Source: Escherichia coli (lineage in GTDB: Bacteria; Pseudomonadota; Gammaproteobacteria; Enterobacterales; Enterobacteriaceae). From it: DNA of 64,000 nucleotides. The translations under genes were made by a program, and so were the position numbers. Where the stretch lies: assembly GCF_046105845.1 (NCBI RefSeq), contig NZ_CP151004.1. The stretch is one strand, 5' to 3'. The notes beneath the pieces were generated by a model. The model saw nothing but the letters and a program-made list of their open reading frames with translations. It was not told the origin of the DNA and searched no databases. Of this stretch, positions 971 to 51,780 are shown one piece after another. How positions within the stretch are numbered: position 1 is the first letter of the stretch; every line of letters begins with the position of its first letter.

Positions 971-1447
971 AATAGTAGTACTCCTAACTGAGATATATTT
1001 GAATGAATACCTATAGGAAACCTCAATCGGTCAAAATTAGCCCAATAGATAAAAAGATAACCACACACGAAGTGATGTGGCTATCAGTCAATTACATTAA
1101 ATATCATACAAAAATAAAATATCACCGATGTGACAACATCTATTTTCATTGATTTGATTCAATATAACAATAGATTGCAGAAGATTAACTTCCAGTTGCT
1201 TAAAAAATAAAGAAAAAAGTGTGGAAACAGGAGAATTTAAGTGATGTGTAAATTTATGAATGATTTTGTTTATTTATTTTGAAGAACATAAACCATTGGA
1301 TTTTGTATGGGTATGGTTAACTTAATGTTTATTATGATAATTAAGAATCACACTTACAATAACATCAATTAATAAATGGTTAATCATTTTTGATATATCG
1401 TAAGAATAATGTGTTTTTTAACACCATCCCTGGTATCCCATCCATCT

Positions 1448-2050
1448 CTATAAAACAGCGTGACGCTGTCTCCCTCTGGCTCTATCCCAGATGCCGTAAA
1501 AACGCCCTGCATTACTGGCGGTATACCAGACAGTATGACGAATATTGCGATGCCCAAGATAATCCTGGATAAGTCGCGTATCTATTCCCATATTCGCCAA
1601 AGCAAAACCACACGAATGGCGTAACATGTGCGGATGAATCTCCAGTGACAACCCGGCATTACCACCGGAAGTCGAGATAATATGGTAAAACTGTTGCCGA
1701 GAAAGCGGATTCCCCTTACGTGATAAAAATACCCACTCGCTCTCAGCATGCGGGTACGAAGTACGGATACTCAACCAGTTTTTTAAAGCCTGAACTTCTT
1801 TGTTCAATAGCGGGTGCGTTGTTGAAAAGCCTTTTTTTAATCGATGGATATATATACACTTTGCCTTAAGATCAATATCCGAAATCCTCAATCGACAAAT
1901 TTCACTCGCCCGGAAACCATGAATAAAAAAAAGCAAAGTCAGACAATAATTACGTGCTGCATGAGGCCCGGTATTTGCTGCTTTAAGGAGTGATTCGATT
2001 TCACTATGGGTCAGGAAGTTCCTTTTTTTGTTATCAGCCTTATTCTTCAT
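1448..2050 (-). CDS. fimB: type 1 fimbriae tyrosine recombinase FimB (200 aa; start taken at the internal Met MKNKADNKK)
   Basis: ORF paralogous to FimE (HPHMLRHSCGF...LGHRNIRHTVWYT); the 10-codon N-terminal extension in the ORF track is rejected. Confidence 0.92.
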   Translation of the reverse strand: MKNKADNKKRNFLTHSEIESLLKAANTGPHAARNYCLTLLFFIHGFRASEICRLRISDIDLKAKCIYIHRLKKGFSTTHPLLNKEVQALKNWLSIRTSYPHAESEWVFLSRKGNPLSRQQFYHIISTSGGNAGLSLEIHPHMLRHSCGFALANMGIDTRLIQDYLGHRNIRHTVWYTASNAGRFYGIWDRARGRQRHAVL

Positions 2051-3064
2051 CGTTTTTCCCTTATAATTACAGACGTGCACTAGCTGTGCTGGGTTAGCAA
2101 TAATCCAACATTTTTATCCTGATTATGTTTATAAAAGCGAACGTTTGCTTAATAACTAACGTAAGTGGACCAGTTCTTCTGAGTGAACTTAAATAGAGTA
2201 GCAACAGTTAATTATAATAACGTTGCCATACAAACGCTATGCTCTTGCATGCTATGTACCTTTATATATTTATCAATCTGATACGAATCTAATAATAACC
2301 CTCATCATTAATGCAACTAATCTTATCTATATATCATGTGATATGTTCTGTAACAAGTAAAATCAACATAAAAAATTCAGCAAAATTTAATATTCGTTCA
2401 ACTAGCCGTCTCACATATGACATTATTAGTCAACTGCATTTGCCACAAAATGGCTATTTCATGGAACGCAGTAATTTCTTAGTGGCTATTATCAAGCTAA
2501 TGCTTAGGTCCCTAGCTATTATTCCTACCTGGTTCGTCAGCTTAGGCCATGAGATTGTTACATTCCTTTTTATCCTGGAGATATGGGGGAACGCAGGCGA
2601 CGCTTTTTCATCTACATCCGTTGGTAAATATGGCTTTGGTCACTACGACTTAAACCTTCCTCAATCACAGCTATTCGCCGGGCGATACGGCAAACAAACT
2701 AAGTGAAACATCATCCTGAAAACACCAACATCAACAAGCCTCTCCAGATCGACTTCAGAAGCGACCAGTTACAAACCACAAATCAGGAAACATATTTCAT
2801 GGTGAGAATTATGCTCAACCTGATGGCGGGTAAACACTTGTTTTCACCACGCTCACTGAGTTAGCTTGCAAAGCTTCCCTTGTTTAGACCCTAAATAAAT
2901 TTTTTATAAAACAAACAGTTAAAAGAAAACCTTTAGTTTTTGAAGACCACCTCAAGTGTTCGTCTGGCTTCACATGGCATCTGCCTCTTAGAAAAAGATC
3001 GACATATTTTGTGACACGAATTGCAAATCTGGTTTTGTTGTATGGATTGCGTGATTTTTGATCT

Positions 3065-3086
3065 GGTATAACAGGTATAAAGGTGC
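3065..3086. promoter_or_regulatory. NanR operator-like GGTATA repeat in the fimB-nanC intergenic region
   Basis: GGTATAACAGGTATAAAGGTGCA, about 430 bp upstream of nanC; matches the GGTATA-repeat operator type known for NanR. Confidence 0.5.
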
Positions 3087-3502
3087 ACCACAATAGTCAA
3101 TGAGACAGGGCATCTCGCAATCTATGGCAAACATCACTTCAGTTCTTTCTCATCGGGTGATGAAAACGCACTTCTGTCTGAAAGGAATATGAAAATGAGA
3201 TCAACAGACACTCTATTTTATGACTCTGGGTAAAATGGATTGAGTAAGTGATATAGCTTACGAACATTCAAATCAATTAAACATCAGAAGAGATTTTATA
3301 CTCAGGTATTTAATCTGGTTCTCTGTTTATTTAAATAATGTGGAAAGAGAATTTTCACAGGAGACCTTATACAAAAAATATAAAATAAGCTACCCGTTGC
3401 CAAAGACACTATAAGCCTGGCAAAAAATATTACACAACATAAATGCTAATTGTTTATGCGGGCTTTGTATTGCTTTCTGTATCCTACAAATGAGTGAAAT
3501 AT

Positions 3503-4219
3503 ATGAAAAAGGCTAAAATACTTTCTGGCGTATTATTACTGTGCTTTTCGTTACCACTAATTTCTCAAGCTGCGACACTGGACGTACGTGGTGGATATCG
3601 TAGTGGAAGCCACGCCTATGAGACTCGACTCAAAGTCAGTGAGGGATGGCAAAATGGATGGTGGGCAAGTATGGAAAGTAATACCTGGAATACCATTCAT
3701 GATAATAAAAAGGAAAATGCCGCACTCAATGATGTTCAGGTTGAAGTTAATTACGCGATTAAACTTGATGATCAATGGACGGTGCGCCCGGGAATGTTAA
3801 CGCATTTTAGCAGCAACGGCACACGCTACGGACCCTACGTAAAACTGTCCTGGGACGCGACAAAAGATCTTAATTTTGGCATTCGCTATCGTTACGACTG
3901 GAAAGCTTACCGACAACAAGACTTATCCGGTGATATGTCTCGTGATAACGTTCATCGTTGGGATGGATATGTCACTTACCATATTAATAGTGATTTCACC
4001 TTCGCATGGCAAACGACGCTATACAGCAAACAGAACGATTATCGCTATGCAAACCACAAGAAATGGGCGACGGAAAATGCATTTGTTCTACAATACCATA
4101 TGACGCCCGATATTACGCCATACATAGAATATGACTACCTGGACCGTCAGGGTGTTTACAACGGCAGAGATAATTTATCGGAAAACAGTTATCGCATTGG
4201 TGTGTCATTTAAACTGTAG
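3503..4219 (+). CDS. nanC: N-acetylneuraminic acid outer-membrane channel NanC (KdgM-family porin, 238 aa)
   Basis: Signal peptide followed by beta-barrel-like sequence; conserved position upstream of nanM and nanS. Confidence 0.9.
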   Translation: MKKAKILSGVLLLCFSLPLISQAATLDVRGGYRSGSHAYETRLKVSEGWQNGWWASMESNTWNTIHDNKKENAALNDVQVEVNYAIKLDDQWTVRPGMLTHFSSNGTRYGPYVKLSWDATKDLNFGIRYRYDWKAYRQQDLSGDMSRDNVHRWDGYVTYHINSDFTFAWQTTLYSKQNDYRYANHKKWATENAFVLQYHMTPDITPYIEYDYLDRQGVYNGRDNLSENSYRIGVSFKL

Positions 4220-4238
4220 TAGACAGGAGACAGTCACA

Positions 4239-5345
4239 ATGAATAAAACAATAACGGCGCTTGCGATCATGATGGCTTCATTTGCCGCAAACGCGTCTGT
4301 ATTACCGGAAACTCCTGTGCCATTTAAAAGTGGTACCGGAGCAATTGATAACGACACTGTCTACATTGGTTTAGGTAGCGCAGGTACGGCATGGTACAAG
4401 CTGGATACACAGGCCAAAGATAAAAAATGGACAGCGTTAGCTGCATTCCCTGGCGGACCAAGAGATCAAGCAACCTCGGCATTTATTGATGGCAATCTGT
4501 ATGTGTTTGGCGGCATTGGCAAAAACAGCGAGGGCTTGACTCAGGTATTTAATGACGTACACAAATACAACCCCAAAACCAATAGCTGGGTTAAATTGAT
4601 GTCGCACGCGCCGATGGGCATGGCGGGCCATGTGACTTTTGTACACAACGGCAAGGCTTATGTTACTGGCGGTGTTAACCAGAATATCTTCAATGGCTAT
4701 TTTGAAGATCTCAACGAGGCTGGAAAAGATTCAACCGCTATAGATAAAATCAACGCCCACTATTTTGACAAAAAAGCAGAAGATTATTTCTTCAATAAGT
4801 TTCTGTTGTCTTTTGATCCCTCAACACAGCAATGGAGTTACGCTGGCGAATCTCCCTGGTACGGAACGGCTGGTGCGGCGGTTGTGAATAAAGGTGATAA
4901 AACCTGGCTTATTAATGGCGAAGCCAAACCAGGATTGCGAACGGATGCCGTATTTGAACTTGACTTCACCGGTAATAATTTAAAATGGAATAAGCTTGCT
5001 CCCGTCGCATCACCAGATGGCGTCGCTGGCGGTTTTGCGGGGATAAGCAATGATTCTCTTATATTTGCCGGAGGGGCCGGATTCAAAGGTTCACGAGAAA
5101 ATTACCAGAACGGTAAGAACTATGCGCATGAAGGCCTGAAAAAATCATATAGCACTGATATTCATCTTTGGCATAACGGGAAATGGGATAAATCGGGTGA
5201 ATTATCGCAAGGTCGGGCCTACGGAGTATCATTGCCCTGGAATAATAGTTTATTAATTATTGGCGGTGAAACTGCAGGTGGCAAAGCGGTGACGGATTCA
5301 GTTTTGATCTCTGTGAAGGATAATAAAGTCACAGTACAAAACTAA
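4239..5345 (+). CDS. nanM: N-acetylneuraminate mutarotase NanM (Kelch-repeat protein, 368 aa)
   Basis: Start at MNKTITALA with signal peptide and GGAGA-type RBS; repeated G-rich Kelch-like blades. Confidence 0.9.
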   Translation: MNKTITALAIMMASFAANASVLPETPVPFKSGTGAIDNDTVYIGLGSAGTAWYKLDTQAKDKKWTALAAFPGGPRDQATSAFIDGNLYVFGGIGKNSEGLTQVFNDVHKYNPKTNSWVKLMSHAPMGMAGHVTFVHNGKAYVTGGVNQNIFNGYFEDLNEAGKDSTAIDKINAHYFDKKAEDYFFNKFLLSFDPSTQQWSYAGESPWYGTAGAAVVNKGDKTWLINGEAKPGLRTDAVFELDFTGNNLKWNKLAPVASPDGVAGGFAGISNDSLIFAGGAGFKGSRENYQNGKNYAHEGLKKSYSTDIHLWHNGKWDKSGELSQGRAYGVSLPWNNSLLIIGGETAGGKAVTDSVLISVKDNKVTVQN

Positions 5346-5409
5346 TGCTTCAGGGCCCCAGTAAAGGGGCCCTGCTATCAATTTGTCATTTGTATTACGC
5401 GAAAATTAT

Positions 5410-6390
5410 ATGAACGCAATAATATCGCCCGATTATTACTATGTTCTTACCGTTGCTGGTCAGTCTAATGCCATGGCGTATGGCGAAGGACTGCCATTAC
5501 CGGACAGGGAAGATGCGCCTCATTCCAGAATTAAACAATTAGCGAGATTTGCGCATACGCATCCCGGAGGCCCGTCATGTCACTTTAACGACATTATTCC
5601 ACTGACTCACTGCCCACACGATGTTCAGGATATGCAGGGTTATCACCATCCTCTGGCAACGAATCATCAAACACAGTACGGCACCGTTGGCCAGGCACTG
5701 CATATTGCACGGAAATTACTGCCCTTTATTCCTGATAACGCAGGGGTTCTCATCGTTCCGTGTTGCCGTGGCGGATCGGCTTTTACCGCGGGCAGCGAAG
5801 GGACATATTCAGAACGGCACGGAGCCAGCCATGATGCTTGTCGTTGGGGAACGGATACTCCGCTATACCAGGATTTAGTCAGCAGAACGCGAGCCGCACT
5901 GGCAAAAAATCCGCAGAACAAATTCCTCGGCGTATGCTGGATGCAAGGCGAATTTGACTTAATGACCAGTGACTACGCGTCACACCCTCAACACTTTAAT
6001 CATATGGTTGAAGCCTTTCGTAGGGAGCTAAAACAATACCATTCTCAGCTTAATAATATTACTGACGCACCGTGGTTTTGCGGCGATACCACCTGGTACT
6101 GGAAAGAAAATTTCCCTCATGCGTATGAAGCTATTTATGGCAATTATCAAAATAATGTTTTAGCCAATATTATTTTCGTCGACTTCCAGCAACAAGGTGC
6201 AAGAGGACTGACGAACGCGCCTGATGAAGATCCAGACGATTTAAGCACGGGATATTACGGTTCAGCGTACCGGTCACCGGAGAACTGGACGACGGTACTG
6301 CGAAGCAGTCATTTCAGCGCGGCAGCCCGTCGGGGGATTATTTCTGACAGGTTTGTAGAAGCAATTTTGCAGTTTTGGCGCGAAAGGTGA
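5410..6390 (+). CDS. nanS: 9-O-acetyl-N-acetylneuraminate esterase NanS (326 aa)
   Basis: Start at MNAIISPDYYYVLTVAGQSNA with GQSN esterase motif; synteny with nanC and nanM. Confidence 0.88.
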   Translation: MNAIISPDYYYVLTVAGQSNAMAYGEGLPLPDREDAPHSRIKQLARFAHTHPGGPSCHFNDIIPLTHCPHDVQDMQGYHHPLATNHQTQYGTVGQALHIARKLLPFIPDNAGVLIVPCCRGGSAFTAGSEGTYSERHGASHDACRWGTDTPLYQDLVSRTRAALAKNPQNKFLGVCWMQGEFDLMTSDYASHPQHFNHMVEAFRRELKQYHSQLNNITDAPWFCGDTTWYWKENFPHAYEAIYGNYQNNVLANIIFVDFQQQGARGLTNAPDEDPDDLSTGYYGSAYRSPENWTTVLRSSHFSAAARRGIISDRFVEAILQFWRER

Positions 6391-6601
6391 GCGTTCATTA
6401 ATTTGATTTATTTGCATCCATTAGCGCTTTTAACTGCTCCGGCGTAAACGGTGGTTTGCGTCGGTGCAGCATCGCATGGCAATTAGGGCACACAGGAAGT
6501 AAAAAAACAAATGAGATCAAGGTAATATATCTTCACTTGCAGGCTTGAACAGCAGAAAATTTGCGAGCATGATCGCAATTATTTCACTGCCAGGGATATC
6601 A

Positions 6602-11300: not shown

Positions 11301-11592
11301 TTTCCATTCCGTGACATAATAGAAATCATTGATTTCATTGATGTAAATATTACTTATGATTAAACATTGTCCACGATGCGAGCACGATCGCAATAAATAT
11401 TGTGCCTGGAGGATGGATTAGATTTTCTGAAAGAGCCGAATCCTTAATAGATAAGCGCAAACATACTTGGTTCGGTATTCTTAAGGGAATTAATATGGAT
11501 TGAACCAGGTGGAAAAAACAGCGGAAAAGATTTGTGTAGCGCGGATTTCAGGCATAAAAAAAGACCTCAGTTGAGGTCTATTTACATACTTT

Positions 11593-11610
11593 TGGTGCCG
11601 AAGGCCGGAC
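11593..11610. repeat. 18-bp direct repeat of the leuX 3' end; distal att-like boundary of the leuX island
   Basis: TGGTGCCGAAGGCCGGAC is identical to the reverse-complemented 3' end of the tRNA at 22703-22720. Confidence 0.7.
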
Positions 11611-11776
11611 CCGAATTTCACACCTAATAGACTGATATCAATATTGTTTATAAACAGGAATGAATAGTTATACCCGAACTTGTACCCACACGTTAAAATC
11701 CGTACAAAAAAATAGACATTGCAAGTGGGTATAAAGCCATACCAGTAGAACACCGATTTGGCTGTCAAAGCAAGAC

Positions 11777-13352
<1,576 letters not shown>

Positions 13353-22702: not shown

Positions 22703-22787
22703 TGGTGCCGAAGGCCGGACTCGAACCGGCACGTATTTCTACGGTTGATTTTGAATCAACTGCGTCTACCGATTTCGCCACTTCGGC
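22703..22787 (-). tRNA. leuX: tRNA-Leu (CAA), leuX
   Basis: Reverse complement reads GCCGAAGTGGCGAAATCGGTAGACGCAGTTGATTCAAAATCAACCGTAGAAATACGTGCCGGTTCGAGTCCGGCCTTCGGCACCA: cloverleaf with long variable arm, CAA anticodon, CCA end. Confidence 0.95.
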
Positions 22788-29131: not shown

Positions 29132-30634
29132 ATGAGCGAACCCCTGTTAATTGCCCGCACGCCAGACACAGAACTGTTTTTACTACCCGCTATGGCTAAC
29201 CGTCACGGGCTGATTACTGGCGCAACGGGGACGGGTAAAACCGTTACGCTGCAAAAGCTGGCGGAGTCATTGTCGGAAATCGGTGTTCCGGTGTTTATGG
29301 CCGATGTGAAAGGCGATCTGACCGGCGTCGCGCAGGCAGGAACGGCGTCGGAAAAACTGCTCGCAAGGCTTAAAAATATCGGCGTAAATGACTGGCAACC
29401 TCATGCTAATCCGGTGGTGGTGTGGGATATCTTTGGCGAGAAAGGCCATCCGGTGCGGGCGACGGTTTCGGATCTGGGGCCGCTGTTGCTGGCGCGACTG
29501 TTGAATCTCAACGATGTGCAATCTGGCGTGCTGAATATTATCTTTCGTATTGCTGATGATCAGGGGCTGTTACTGCTCGACTTTAAAGATTTGCGGGCGA
29601 TTACCCAGTACATCGGCGATAACGCCAAATCCTTCCAGAATCAGTACGGTAATATCAGTAGCGCATCGGTTGGTGCCATCCAGCGCGGGCTGTTATCGCT
29701 GGAACAGCAAGGCGCGGCGCACTTTTTTGGTGAGCCGATGCTGGATATCAAAGACTGGATGCGTACCGATACCAACGGTAAAGGCGTTATCAATATCCTC
29801 AGCGCCGAGAAGCTTTATCAGATGCCGAAACTGTACGCCGCCAGTCTGCTGTGGATGCTTTCAGAGTTGTATGAACAATTGCCTGAAGCGGGCGATCTGG
29901 AGAAACCAAAACTGGTGTTTTTCTTCGACGAAGCACATCTGCTGTTTAACGATGCGCCACAGGTACTACTGGATAAGATTGAGCAGGTGATAAGGCTTAT
30001 TCGCTCAAAAGGCGTGGGCGTCTGGTTCGTTTCGCAAAACCCGTCAGATATTCCGGATAATGTGCTCGGGCAGCTAGGTAATCGCGTTCAACACGCTTTA
30101 CGGGCTTTTACGCCCAAAGATCAGAAAGCAGTAAAAGCTGCGGCGCAAACCATGCGGGCCAATCCGGCGTTTGATACCGAAAAGGCAATCCAGGAACTGG
30201 GGACCGGCGAGGCGTTAATCTCGTTTCTCGATGCGAAAGGAAGCCCTTCAGTGGTGGAACGGGCGATGGTGATTGCCCCCTGTTCACGAATGGGGCCGGT
30301 GACGGAAGATGAGCGTAATGGCTTGATTAATCACTCTCCGGTGTATGGCAAGTACGAGGATGACGTGGACCGGGAATCCGCCTATGAGATGTTGCAAAAA
30401 GGCTTTCAGGCCAGTACCGAGCAGCAAAATAATCCTCCCGCGAAAGGGAAAGAGGTGGCGGTGGATGACGGTATTCTTGGTGGATTGAAGGATATTTTGT
30501 TTGGCACTACCGGACCACGCGGCGGGAAGAAAGATGGTGTGGTGCAAACAATGGCGAAAAGCGCCGCCCGCCAGGTGACGAATCAGATTGTACGCGGGAT
30601 GTTGGGGAGTTTGCTGGGGGGGAGAAAAAGATAA
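29132..30634 (+). CDS. yjgR: Conserved P-loop NTPase YjgR (DUF853), 500 aa
   Basis: Walker A GATGTGKT; Walker B FFFDEAH. Confidence 0.9.
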
Positions 30635-30651
30635 GTCAGACGTGATCTGTG

Positions 30652-30690
30652 CCCCTCACCCTAACCCTCTCCCCAAAGGGGCGAGGGGAC
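30652..30690. repeat. GC-rich hairpin intergenic repeat (CCCTCACCCTAACCCTCTCCC...GGG), copy 1
   Basis: Between the convergent yjgR and lptG; near-identical copies at 34736-34768 and 58622-58656. Confidence 0.6.
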
Positions 30691-30752
30691 CGTTCGAACT
30701 CGTATTTGACTTTGTCAACAATAATAAAGGGAGCTTTCGCTCCCTTGTTAGA

Positions 30753-51511: not shown

Positions 51512-51780
51512 AAGGAGTCCCTCCGTACTGTCTGAAACAGTACAGAAATGTCTTCAGGCGTGGCGAAGCCTTACCTGAAGGTAATAAAGCTGAGCAGGGA
51601 CGTTAAAACGTCACGGCCTTACGCATCCGGTAACGCCGTGAAAAGACGGGCTTACCGGAAAAGTTTTAATCTCCGTCGAGGGAGAGGCGTGGGATCAGGT
51701 TCCATATAACCTCCGGTAAGTGAAAAAAGCGCCGCAAATAATAAGGAGAATCCAATAATATTCGTAGCATCTATGGCGAT
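51512..51780 (-). promoter_or_regulatory. mgtA 5' leader region (Mg2+- and proline-responsive), containing mgtL
   Basis: Long untranslated region between the promoter and mgtA that contains the proline-rich leader ORF. Confidence 0.5.
51652..51705 (-). CDS. mgtL: mgtA leader peptide MgtL, 17 aa
   Basis: [17 protein letters not shown] encoded immediately upstream of mgtA. Confidence 0.75.

What the first reader, a model, noticed from the sequence alone, without database searches (positions are those of the whole stretch)
30652..30690. Recurring GC-rich hairpin repeat downstream of three unrelated genes
The motif CCCTCACCCTAACCCTCTCCC followed by a complementary GGGAGAGGG arm occurs three times in the window (30652-30690 after yjgR, 34736-34768 after pepA, 58622-58656 after nrdD), each just past a stop codon and in the same orientation. 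It is distinct from the REP units also present. It is probably a known small E. coli intergenic repeat family acting as a terminator or mRNA stabiliser, but I cannot name it with confidence.
Basis: seen in the sequence. Interest (0 to 1): 0.3.

Follow-up and report, generated by a model that had tools for sequence, protein, structure and literature searches.

The report
Three copies of the BoxC repeat
The recurring GC-rich hairpin is the long-known E. coli "BoxC" intergenic repeat (also published as PIT, TMECO type A and HPG1); it is real and non-random, but it is ordinary and is not a transcription terminator.

Summary
CCCTCACCCTAACCCTCTCCC occurs exactly three times, all on the + strand. The copies lie 18, 12 and 8 nt after the TAA stops of yjgR, pepA and nrdD, and none is expected by chance. 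Two details need correcting: copy 2 starts at 34726, not 34736, and copy 1 has an imperfect 3' arm (GGGGCGAGGG).

The reverse complement is the published BoxC / PIT / TMECO type A / HPG1 element. Copy 1 is identical to K-12 TMECO 7/11/15 and copy 3 to TMECO 2. E. coli genomes carry a median of 20 matches.

None of the hairpins has a T-run. Copy 3 lies inside the nrdDG operon, and published tests found no terminator or promoter activity. The shared orientation seen here is not general: K-12 copies split 9 same to 11 opposite.

The three copies are strain-variable alleles. K-12 has REP/BIME elements at exactly these three spacers, and these spacers account for three of the four breaks in 41 kb of otherwise collinear sequence.

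The exact 21-mer, with the full three-block architecture, also occurs in many distant bacterial phyla and on phage contigs. No transposase was found next to it.

Verdict: already known, low interest. Function and means of spread remain open.

The parts
30652..30696 (-). BoxC copy 1 (type 'A mm'). The canonical published orientation reads on the - strand; the + strand (yjgR mRNA sense) carries the C-rich complement. The core 30652-30687 is identical to K-12 TMECO 7/11/15. The tail is GACCGTTCG.
   Evidence: Holder 2015 Table 1
30665..30687 (+). Hairpin of copy 1: CCCTCTCCCC / AAA / GGGGCGAGGG, with one T-C mismatch and no T-run after it.
   Evidence: RNA fold z only -1.4
34725..34767 (-). BoxC copy 2 (type A, perfect stem), 12 nt after the pepA stop, in the pepA-holC spacer.
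34738..34758 (+). Hairpin of copy 2: CCCTCTCCC / TAA / GGGAGAGGG.
   Evidence: dG -21.6 kcal/mol, z -3.2
58622..58666 (-). BoxC copy 3 (type A), 8 nt after the nrdD stop, between nrdD and nrdG. The core 58622-58656 is identical to K-12 TMECO 2.
58634..58657 (+). Hairpin of copy 3: ACCCTCTCCC / TCAA / GGGAGAGGGT.
   Evidence: dG -20.3 kcal/mol, z -3.4
30651..30708 (.). Strain-variable segment of the yjgR-lptG spacer. K-12 has a single REP plus other sequence here instead.
   Evidence: about a third of E. coli genomes carry the BoxC allele
34722..34816 (.). Strain-variable segment of the pepA-holC spacer. Other strains have a BIME with 1, 2 or 3 REP pairs.
   Evidence: about 25% of genomes carry the BoxC allele
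58621..58788 (.). Strain-variable segment of the nrdD-nrdG spacer. K-12 has a two-REP BIME here.
   Evidence: 408 of 5426 genomes carry the BoxC allele
30727..30746 (.). Terminator-like hairpin between the convergent genes yjgR and lptG (AAGGGAGC TTTC GCTCCCTT), downstream of BoxC copy 1. It is conserved in K-12.

Best explanation
These are three copies of the BoxC interspersed repeat, also published as PIT element, TMECO type A and HPG1. BoxC is a roughly 45-bp three-block unit. On the - strand it reads CCCTC(T/G)CCC, a 3-4 nt loop, GGGAGAGGG, TTA, GGGTGAGGG, preceded by CG(A/G)(A/T)CGGT. I rate the identity at about 0.97.

Most likely the copies are selfish or neutral repeated DNA with no dedicated role at yjgR, pepA or nrdD. 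They sit in the few spacers next to gene 3' ends that tolerate insertions, the same niche that REP/BIME elements occupy. They are inherited as alternative spacer alleles that move between strains by homologous recombination of the flanking genes.

Read through from the upstream gene, each copy gives a 9-10 bp GC hairpin with no U-tract. It therefore cannot act as an intrinsic terminator. At most it is an incidental 3' barrier to exonucleases, which is inference only. On single-stranded DNA the G-rich strand can fold into a hairpin or triplex; others have shown this in vitro but did not detect it in vivo. How new copies arise is unknown.
For: Identity: the motif is exact three times with none expected. 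Copies 1 and 3 are identical over 36 and 35 nt to TMECO 7 and TMECO 2 of Holder 2015 Table 1. The 21-mer equals HPG1 of Kaplan 2016. Holder equates TMECO with BoxC and PIT. The copy number fits: a median of 20 and up to 37 places per E. coli genome, against a published 22-32 for BoxC.

Not a terminator: no T-run follows the hairpins and the scan does not call them. Copies lie within operons (nrdD-nrdG here; pstA-pstB in K-12). Published tests were negative.

Variable alleles: blastn against K-12 breaks only at the three BoxC spacers and at one contracted BIME across 41 kb. The BoxC alleles occur in roughly 34%, 25% and 7.5% of E. coli genomes.

Shared niche with REP: all three sites hold REP/BIME in K-12.

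3'-end niche: K-12 loci are 7 convergent, 9 co-directional and 2 divergent. In other genomes convergent outnumber divergent 14 to 4.

The hairpin is maintained: 57 of 96 distinct loops add extra closing pairs, against 21.8 +/- 3.9 in shuffles.
Against: No mechanism of spread was found. No target-site duplication is visible at the one near-empty allele. No transposase lies among ORFs flanked by units.

Exact conservation of a 21-mer plus the three-block architecture across distant phyla is hard to reconcile with purely neutral DNA. It hints at a sequence-specific partner or function.

A role as mRNA stabiliser was not tested and would also fit the position just after stop codons.

The REP co-location is only 3 of the 5 loci examined.
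Confidence: 0.72

Rival explanations
1. A selected 3'-UTR or intercistronic RNA hairpin that protects the upstream mRNA from 3'-to-5' exonucleases, working like REP.
For: The RNA hairpins are stable: dG -20 to -28 kcal/mol and z -2.6 to -3.7 for copies 2 and 3. They lie 8-18 nt after stop codons. They occupy exactly the spacers that hold REP in K-12. In yjgR-lptG and in K-12 ilvC-ppiC the unit lies between the stop codon and the true terminator hairpin. The hairpin apex covaries across lineages. The palindromic core would work in either orientation, which fits the absence of an orientation bias.
Against: There is no direct evidence. Copy 1 folds no better than shuffles (z -1.4). Absent alleles at other loci are near-empty or unrelated, so the hairpin is dispensable. 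A hairpin alone does not explain the conserved third block and tail. Earlier functional screens found no effect.
Confidence: 0.18
2. A DNA-level non-B structure (intrastrand triplex or G-quadruplex/hairpin switch) that regulates neighbouring genes or drives local genome instability.
For: The - strand has four G3 tracts with 3-nt loops and a purine/pyrimidine three-block layout. Triplex formation was shown in vitro by CD and NMR. A G4/hairpin switch has been proposed. All three sites are breakpoints of collinearity with K-12. Holder found more variation at TMECO loci than at control loci.
Against: In vivo DMS footprinting did not detect the triplex, and with the complementary strand present the sequence forms a duplex. 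The variability may simply reflect gain and loss of the repeat and of REP/BIMEs. There is no functional class or distance pattern among the flanking genes.
Confidence: 0.08
3. A Rho-independent transcription terminator for yjgR, pepA and nrdD.
For: A GC-rich hairpin lies just past stop codons.
Against: No U-tract follows the hairpins: the tails are GACCGTTCGAAC, AACCGATCGAGC and ACCGTTCCGTGC. The scan calls none of them. Copy 3 lies between the co-transcribed genes nrdD and nrdG (established knowledge), and a K-12 copy lies inside pstSCAB-phoU. A terminator-like hairpin follows copy 1 at 30727-30746. Published assays were negative.
Confidence: 0.02

Closest known systems
BoxC repeat of E. coli (Bergler 1992; Bachellier 1999), equal to PIT elements (Hoyne and Maher 2000, 2002) and TMECO type A / A-mm (Holder 2015)
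   Same: The sequence is the same. Copy 1 equals TMECO 7/11/15, copy 3 equals TMECO 2, and copy 2 differs from TMECO 17 at one loop base and the last base. The copies are intergenic, number about 20-35 per genome, and vary between strains.
   Different: None of the three sites is among the 23 K-12 sites. They are occupied in this lineage and in 7-34% of E. coli genomes, while K-12 has REP/BIME there. I could not check whether they are among Holder's 63 strain-variable loci.
HPG1 putative G-quadruplex/hairpin motif (Kaplan 2016, PMC5100583)
   Same: The core dGGGAGAGGGTTAGGGTGAGGG is identical. The placement bias towards convergent gene pairs and 3' ends is the same.
   Different: It is only a different structural reading of the same element. 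Kaplan's suggestion of a terminator role inside operons is not supported here.
REP / BIME elements
   Same: Both are small GC-rich palindromic intergenic repeats near gene 3' ends. They occupy the same three spacers in different strains.
   Different: There is no sequence similarity. REP is mobilised by RAYT transposases, is about 15-fold more abundant, and has a shown mRNA-stabilising effect. None of this is known for BoxC.
REPIN-like inverted doublets / MITEs
   Same: In Pseudomonas and Asticcacaulis, and at 5 K-12 loci, units occur as inverted A+B pairs with a spacer, inside longer repeats that are near-identical within one genome.
   Different: The three window copies are single units. No target-site duplication was seen. 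No associated transposase was found.

Membership tests
BoxC / PIT / TMECO type A / HPG1 | Three-block sequence: CCCTC(T/G)CCC, short loop, GGGAGAGGG, TTA, GGGTGAGGG | tested here: met
   Two copies are string-identical to published TMECO sequences, and the third differs at one loop base and the last base. The 21-mer is identical to HPG1.
BoxC / PIT / TMECO type A / HPG1 | Strictly intergenic, tens of copies per E. coli genome | tested here: met
   All three copies lie in spacers. There are a median of 20 and at most 37 places per genome in 5408 of 5426 genomes.
BoxC / PIT / TMECO type A / HPG1 | Occupancy differs between E. coli strains | tested here: met
   The element is absent from K-12 at all three sites. 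Allele frequencies are about 34%, 25% and 7.5%.
BoxC / PIT / TMECO type A / HPG1 | Match to the original 56-bp BoxC consensus of Bergler/Bachellier | not tested
   The original papers are not held. The equivalence rests on Holder's statement and on the length and copy number in Petrillo 2008.
BoxC / PIT / TMECO type A / HPG1 | G-rich strand folds into an intrastrand triplex as single-stranded DNA | not testable with these tools
   Only the Watson-Crick hairpin can be computed. The triplex was shown in vitro by others for identical sequences.
Intrinsic (Rho-independent) terminator | GC-rich stem-loop immediately followed by a U/T-run | tested here: not met
   The stem is present. There is no T-run, and the scans call none of the three copies.
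REP / BIME | REP consensus GCC(G/T)GATGCG(G/A)CG ... CTTATC(C/A)GGCCTAC | tested here: not met
   There is no match at the three sites.
Any Rfam RNA family | Score at or above the family's gathering threshold | tested here: not met
   Nothing matches at the sites. Only sub-threshold hairpin matches appear, such as whalefall-1 at 16.7 bits against a threshold of 37.
MITE / REPIN (non-autonomous transposable element) | Defined ends with a target-site duplication, or a cognate transposase flanked by units | tested here: inconclusive
   No duplication is visible at the near-empty ilvC-ppiC allele. ORFs flanked by units are MFS, ADH and phage capsid, portal and tail genes, not transposases. Only loci around matches were available, not whole genomes.

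The most novel reading that the evidence does not exclude
BoxC is an active or recently active non-autonomous mobile element that spreads across phyla. The exact 21-mer, with the whole three-block architecture, is found in Gamma-, Beta-, Alpha- and Deltaproteobacteria, Verrucomicrobiales, a Gracilibacteria MAG and phage contigs. It often occurs as REPIN-like inverted doublets that are near-identical within one genome. On this reading an unidentified enzyme mobilises it in trans, and in E. coli it preferentially lands in or replaces REP/BIME spacers (3 of 3 here). Finding that enzyme would define a new class of small mobile DNA.
Probability: 0.12. Interest if true: 0.6.

Novelty: already known. 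Interest (0 to 1): 0.13.

Why it matters
The finding matters little in itself. The element has been described at least four times under different names since 1992. It is still not annotated in RefSeq records, so it keeps being rediscovered.

In practical terms, these hairpins should not be annotated as terminators. Spacers that hold them are the places where closely related E. coli genomes differ.

Two open questions remain worth someone's time. First, what copies the element: it has a pan-bacterial distribution and sits between phage structural genes, yet no transposase is associated with it. Second, why does it alternate with REP/BIME at the same spacers.

Tried and rejected
Rfam: the gathering search found nothing at the sites, and the E-value search gave only generic sub-threshold hairpin hits, including whalefall-1.

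Terminator scan: none of the three copies was called.

Orientation bias relative to the upstream gene: absent in K-12, recomputed from published tables as 9 against 11 overall and 6 against 9 for type A. It is also absent in 38 singleton copies from other genomes, using my own crude ORF calls (20 against 18).

Search for a mobilising gene: the ten longest ORFs flanked by units on both sides are ordinary or phage structural genes.

'BoxC always replaces REP': rejected as a rule. At ilvC-ppiC the BoxC-less allele is a near-empty site 41 bp shorter, with no target duplication. At tauD-hemB it is an unrelated 39-bp spacer.

GenBank phages: only 7 weak or mislabelled records.

Bachellier 1997 (Genetics), which I recall reporting boxC insertions at BIME loci, is not held. 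That point rests on memory.

Full report
**Observation.** The 21-mer CCCTCACCCTAACCCTCTCCC is present exactly three times in the window, at 30653, 34726 and 58623, always on the + strand. None of 100 dinucleotide-preserving shuffles gave a match even with three mismatches allowed. Looser patterns for the two purine blocks or for the hairpin find the same three sites and nothing else.

Each copy follows a TAA stop codon, by 18, 12 and 8 nt. The upstream ORFs end at 30634, 34713 and 58614. RefSeq annotation of matching E. coli records names them yjgR, pepA and nrdD, and collinearity with K-12 agrees.

Two corrections apply. Copy 1 has the arm GGGGCGAGGG rather than GGGAGAGGG, which gives one mismatch in the stem.

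It reads (A/C)CCCTCACCCTAACCCTCTCCC, a 3-4 nt loop, GGGAGAGGG, one variable base, then ACCG(T/A)TC(C)G.

**What it is.** The reverse complement is the element published as TMECO type A by Holder et al. 2015 (PMC4666352). They state that it is the same as the BoxC repeat of the 1990s and the PIT elements of Hoyne and Maher.

- Copy 1 is string-identical over 36 nt to their K-12 TMECO 7/11/15, of the 'A mm' type.
- Copy 3 is identical over 35 nt to TMECO 2.
- Copy 2 differs from TMECO 17 at one loop base and the last base.
- The same 21-mer is the 'HPG1' putative G-quadruplex motif of Kaplan et al. 2016.

A 51-nt query matches 5408 of 5426 complete E. coli genomes, with a median of 20 and at most 37 places each, almost all chromosomal. 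Published counts for BoxC are 22-32 per genome. RefSeq records carry no feature under the matches, and Rfam has no family for it.

**Terminator reading.** Copies 2 and 3 fold into perfect 9-10 bp GC hairpins as RNA, with dG -20 to -28 kcal/mol and z -2.6 to -3.7. Copy 1 folds no better than shuffles (z about -1.4). The DNA folds give the same picture.

No T-run follows any of them, and the consensus terminator scan calls none. A terminator-like hairpin lies downstream of copy 1 at 30727-30746 and is conserved in K-12. In K-12 ilvC-ppiC the BoxC unit lies likewise between the stop codon and the GC hairpin shared by the convergent genes.

Copy 3 lies between nrdD and nrdG, which are co-transcribed (established knowledge). 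A K-12 copy lies inside pstSCAB-phoU. Holder et al. report that Hoyne and Maher found no promoter or terminator activity and no effect on RNA polymerase. The terminator reading therefore fails.

**Orientation and position.** I combined Holder's Table 1 (strand of each copy) with their Table S2 (flanking genes). In K-12, 9 copies have the G-rich strand in the sense of the nearest gene whose 3' end faces them, and 11 have the opposite, which is the window's configuration. For type A alone, Kaplan's table gives 6 against 9. In 38 singleton copies from other genomes, with my own crude ORF calls, the split is 20 against 18.

Three of three in one orientation is therefore unremarkable. Position is not random, though. 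K-12 loci are 7 convergent, 9 co-directional and 2 divergent, and co-directional copies mostly lie nearer the upstream stop codon. In other genomes convergent outnumber divergent 14 to 4. This is the bias expected for any insertion that is tolerated away from promoters, and REP shows the same bias.

**Strain variation.** The window is collinear with K-12 positions 4,455,111-4,496,542 at 97.3-98.1% identity. The blastn alignment breaks in only four places: the three BoxC spacers and the mpl-yjgA BIME, which has three REPs in K-12 and one here. K-12 has no BoxC at the three sites. Instead it has:

- a single REP in yjgR-lptG;
- two-REP BIMEs in pepA-holC and nrdD-nrdG.

At pepA-holC the alleles found among E. 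coli are either the 133-bp BoxC spacer or a BIME with one, two or three REP pairs, at 159, 258 and 353 bp. I saw no empty allele and no combined allele. The BoxC alleles occur in roughly 34% (yjgR-lptG), 25% (pepA-holC) and 7.5% (nrdD-nrdG) of complete E. coli genomes.

K-12 has five REP-bearing spacers in this stretch, and the window has BoxC at three of them and nowhere else. With about 21 eligible spacers this is roughly p = 0.008, computed post hoc. The alternation is not a rule, however. At two K-12 BoxC loci the BoxC-less allele is a near-empty site 41 bp shorter with no target duplication (ilvC-ppiC), or an unrelated 39-bp spacer with its own hairpin (tauD-hemB). From memory, Bachellier et al. 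1997 already reported boxC insertions at BIME loci; that paper is not held.

**Wider distribution.** By then it had covered Pseudomonas, Asticcacaulis, Brady- and Mesorhizobium, Polaromonas, Methylobacillus, Methylomagnum, Contendobacter, deltaproteobacterial and Thermodesulfobacteriota MAGs, Verrucomicrobiales, a Gracilibacteria MAG and one Methanomicrobiaceae MAG contig.

Of 246 units in the genome and viral sets, 242 keep the first block 2-14 nt upstream. Of 96 distinct loops, 57 add extra closing base pairs, against 21.8 +/- 3.9 in shuffles, so the hairpin is maintained by compensating changes. The flanks are lineage-specific, but the tail CGAACGGT is shared between E. coli and one Pseudomonas.

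In two Pseudomonas genomes the unit is one end of a repeat longer than 130 bp that is built as an inverted pair of units. This is the same A+B doublet described at five K-12 loci.

The motif also occurs on more than 120 IMG/VR contigs, in several cases between capsid, portal and tail genes. Curated GenBank phages hardly have it. It is on 371 of 72,556 plasmid records. No ORF flanked by units was a transposase. The broad distribution was already reported, in more than 260 genomes.

**Mechanism.** Shown here or in the literature:

- the sequence identity with BoxC;
- the hairpin potential and its conservation;
- the absence of terminator features;
- strain-variable occupancy;
- the bias towards gene 3' ends;
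- in vitro triplex formation, with no in vivo signal.

Inferred: the copies are selfish or neutral repeats that persist in permissive 3' spacers. They are exchanged as whole spacer alleles by recombination. When transcribed they give at most an incidental REP-like 3' hairpin. How new copies are made is unknown.

**Verdict.** The element is already known and has been rediscovered repeatedly. Interest is low. The small residual interest lies in the unknown copying mechanism and in the alternation with REP at the same spacers.

Noticed in passing
L144 (IMGVR_UViG_3300037311_000496) 1164-6495; L164, L189, L207, L128: The exact BoxC type A 21-mer occurs on more than 120 IMG/VR viral contigs. On some, several units sit in the spacers between capsid, portal and tail-collar genes (Pfam). 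Holder 2015 stated that the motif was not found on phages or plasmids. Curated GenBank phages have almost none.
   Followed up: partly
L034-L065 (Pseudomonas sp. dw_612), L073-L100 (Pseudomonas sp. EaCA-3), L109-L119 (Asticcacaulis): In these genomes the unit is one end of a longer repeat (over 130 bp) that is near-identical within the genome. The repeat is built as an inverted pair of units with a spacer of about 45 bp, which is REPIN-like. L082 holds a full palindrome with a 21-bp stem. Two EaCA-3 copies (L074, L090) directly abut a Pseudomonas REP.
   Followed up: partly
window 61897-61927 vs K-12 4457189-4457274: The mpl-yjgA BIME has three REPs in K-12 but one REP in the window. This is the only break in 41 kb of collinearity that is not a BoxC site.
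   Followed up: yes
window 1-22646: Collinearity with K-12 ends at the leuX tRNA (22706-22787, - strand). The upstream ~22 kb is not in the K-12 stretch compared (only a 73-bp match, at 11543-11615) and carries an isrC match at 12163-12285, so it may be a leuX-associated island. Over the stretches queried, no complete RefSeq E. coli genome is more than 98.5-99% identical to the window.
   Followed up: no
window 33760-33954 (- strand): Rfam 'Ysr276' (Yersinia antisense sRNA) matches at 185.8 bits inside the pepA coding region. This may simply reflect conservation of the pepA coding sequence.
   Followed up: no
window 51605-51720 (- strand): A magnesium riboswitch (Mg-II aptamer) matches at 125.8 bits. 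By collinearity it is the mgtA leader, as expected.
   Followed up: no
window 58622-58657 (- strand): Copy 3 gives a sub-threshold Rfam match to whalefall-1 (RF01762), at 16.7 bits against a threshold of 37. The shared pattern is a hairpin followed by AGGGUGAGG. It is probably chance.
   Followed up: partly
window 34786-34800: A fragment CAGGGTGAGGAATG, resembling BoxC block 3 in the opposite orientation, lies about 30 nt after copy 2. It could be a remnant of an inverted partner unit or chance.
   Followed up: no
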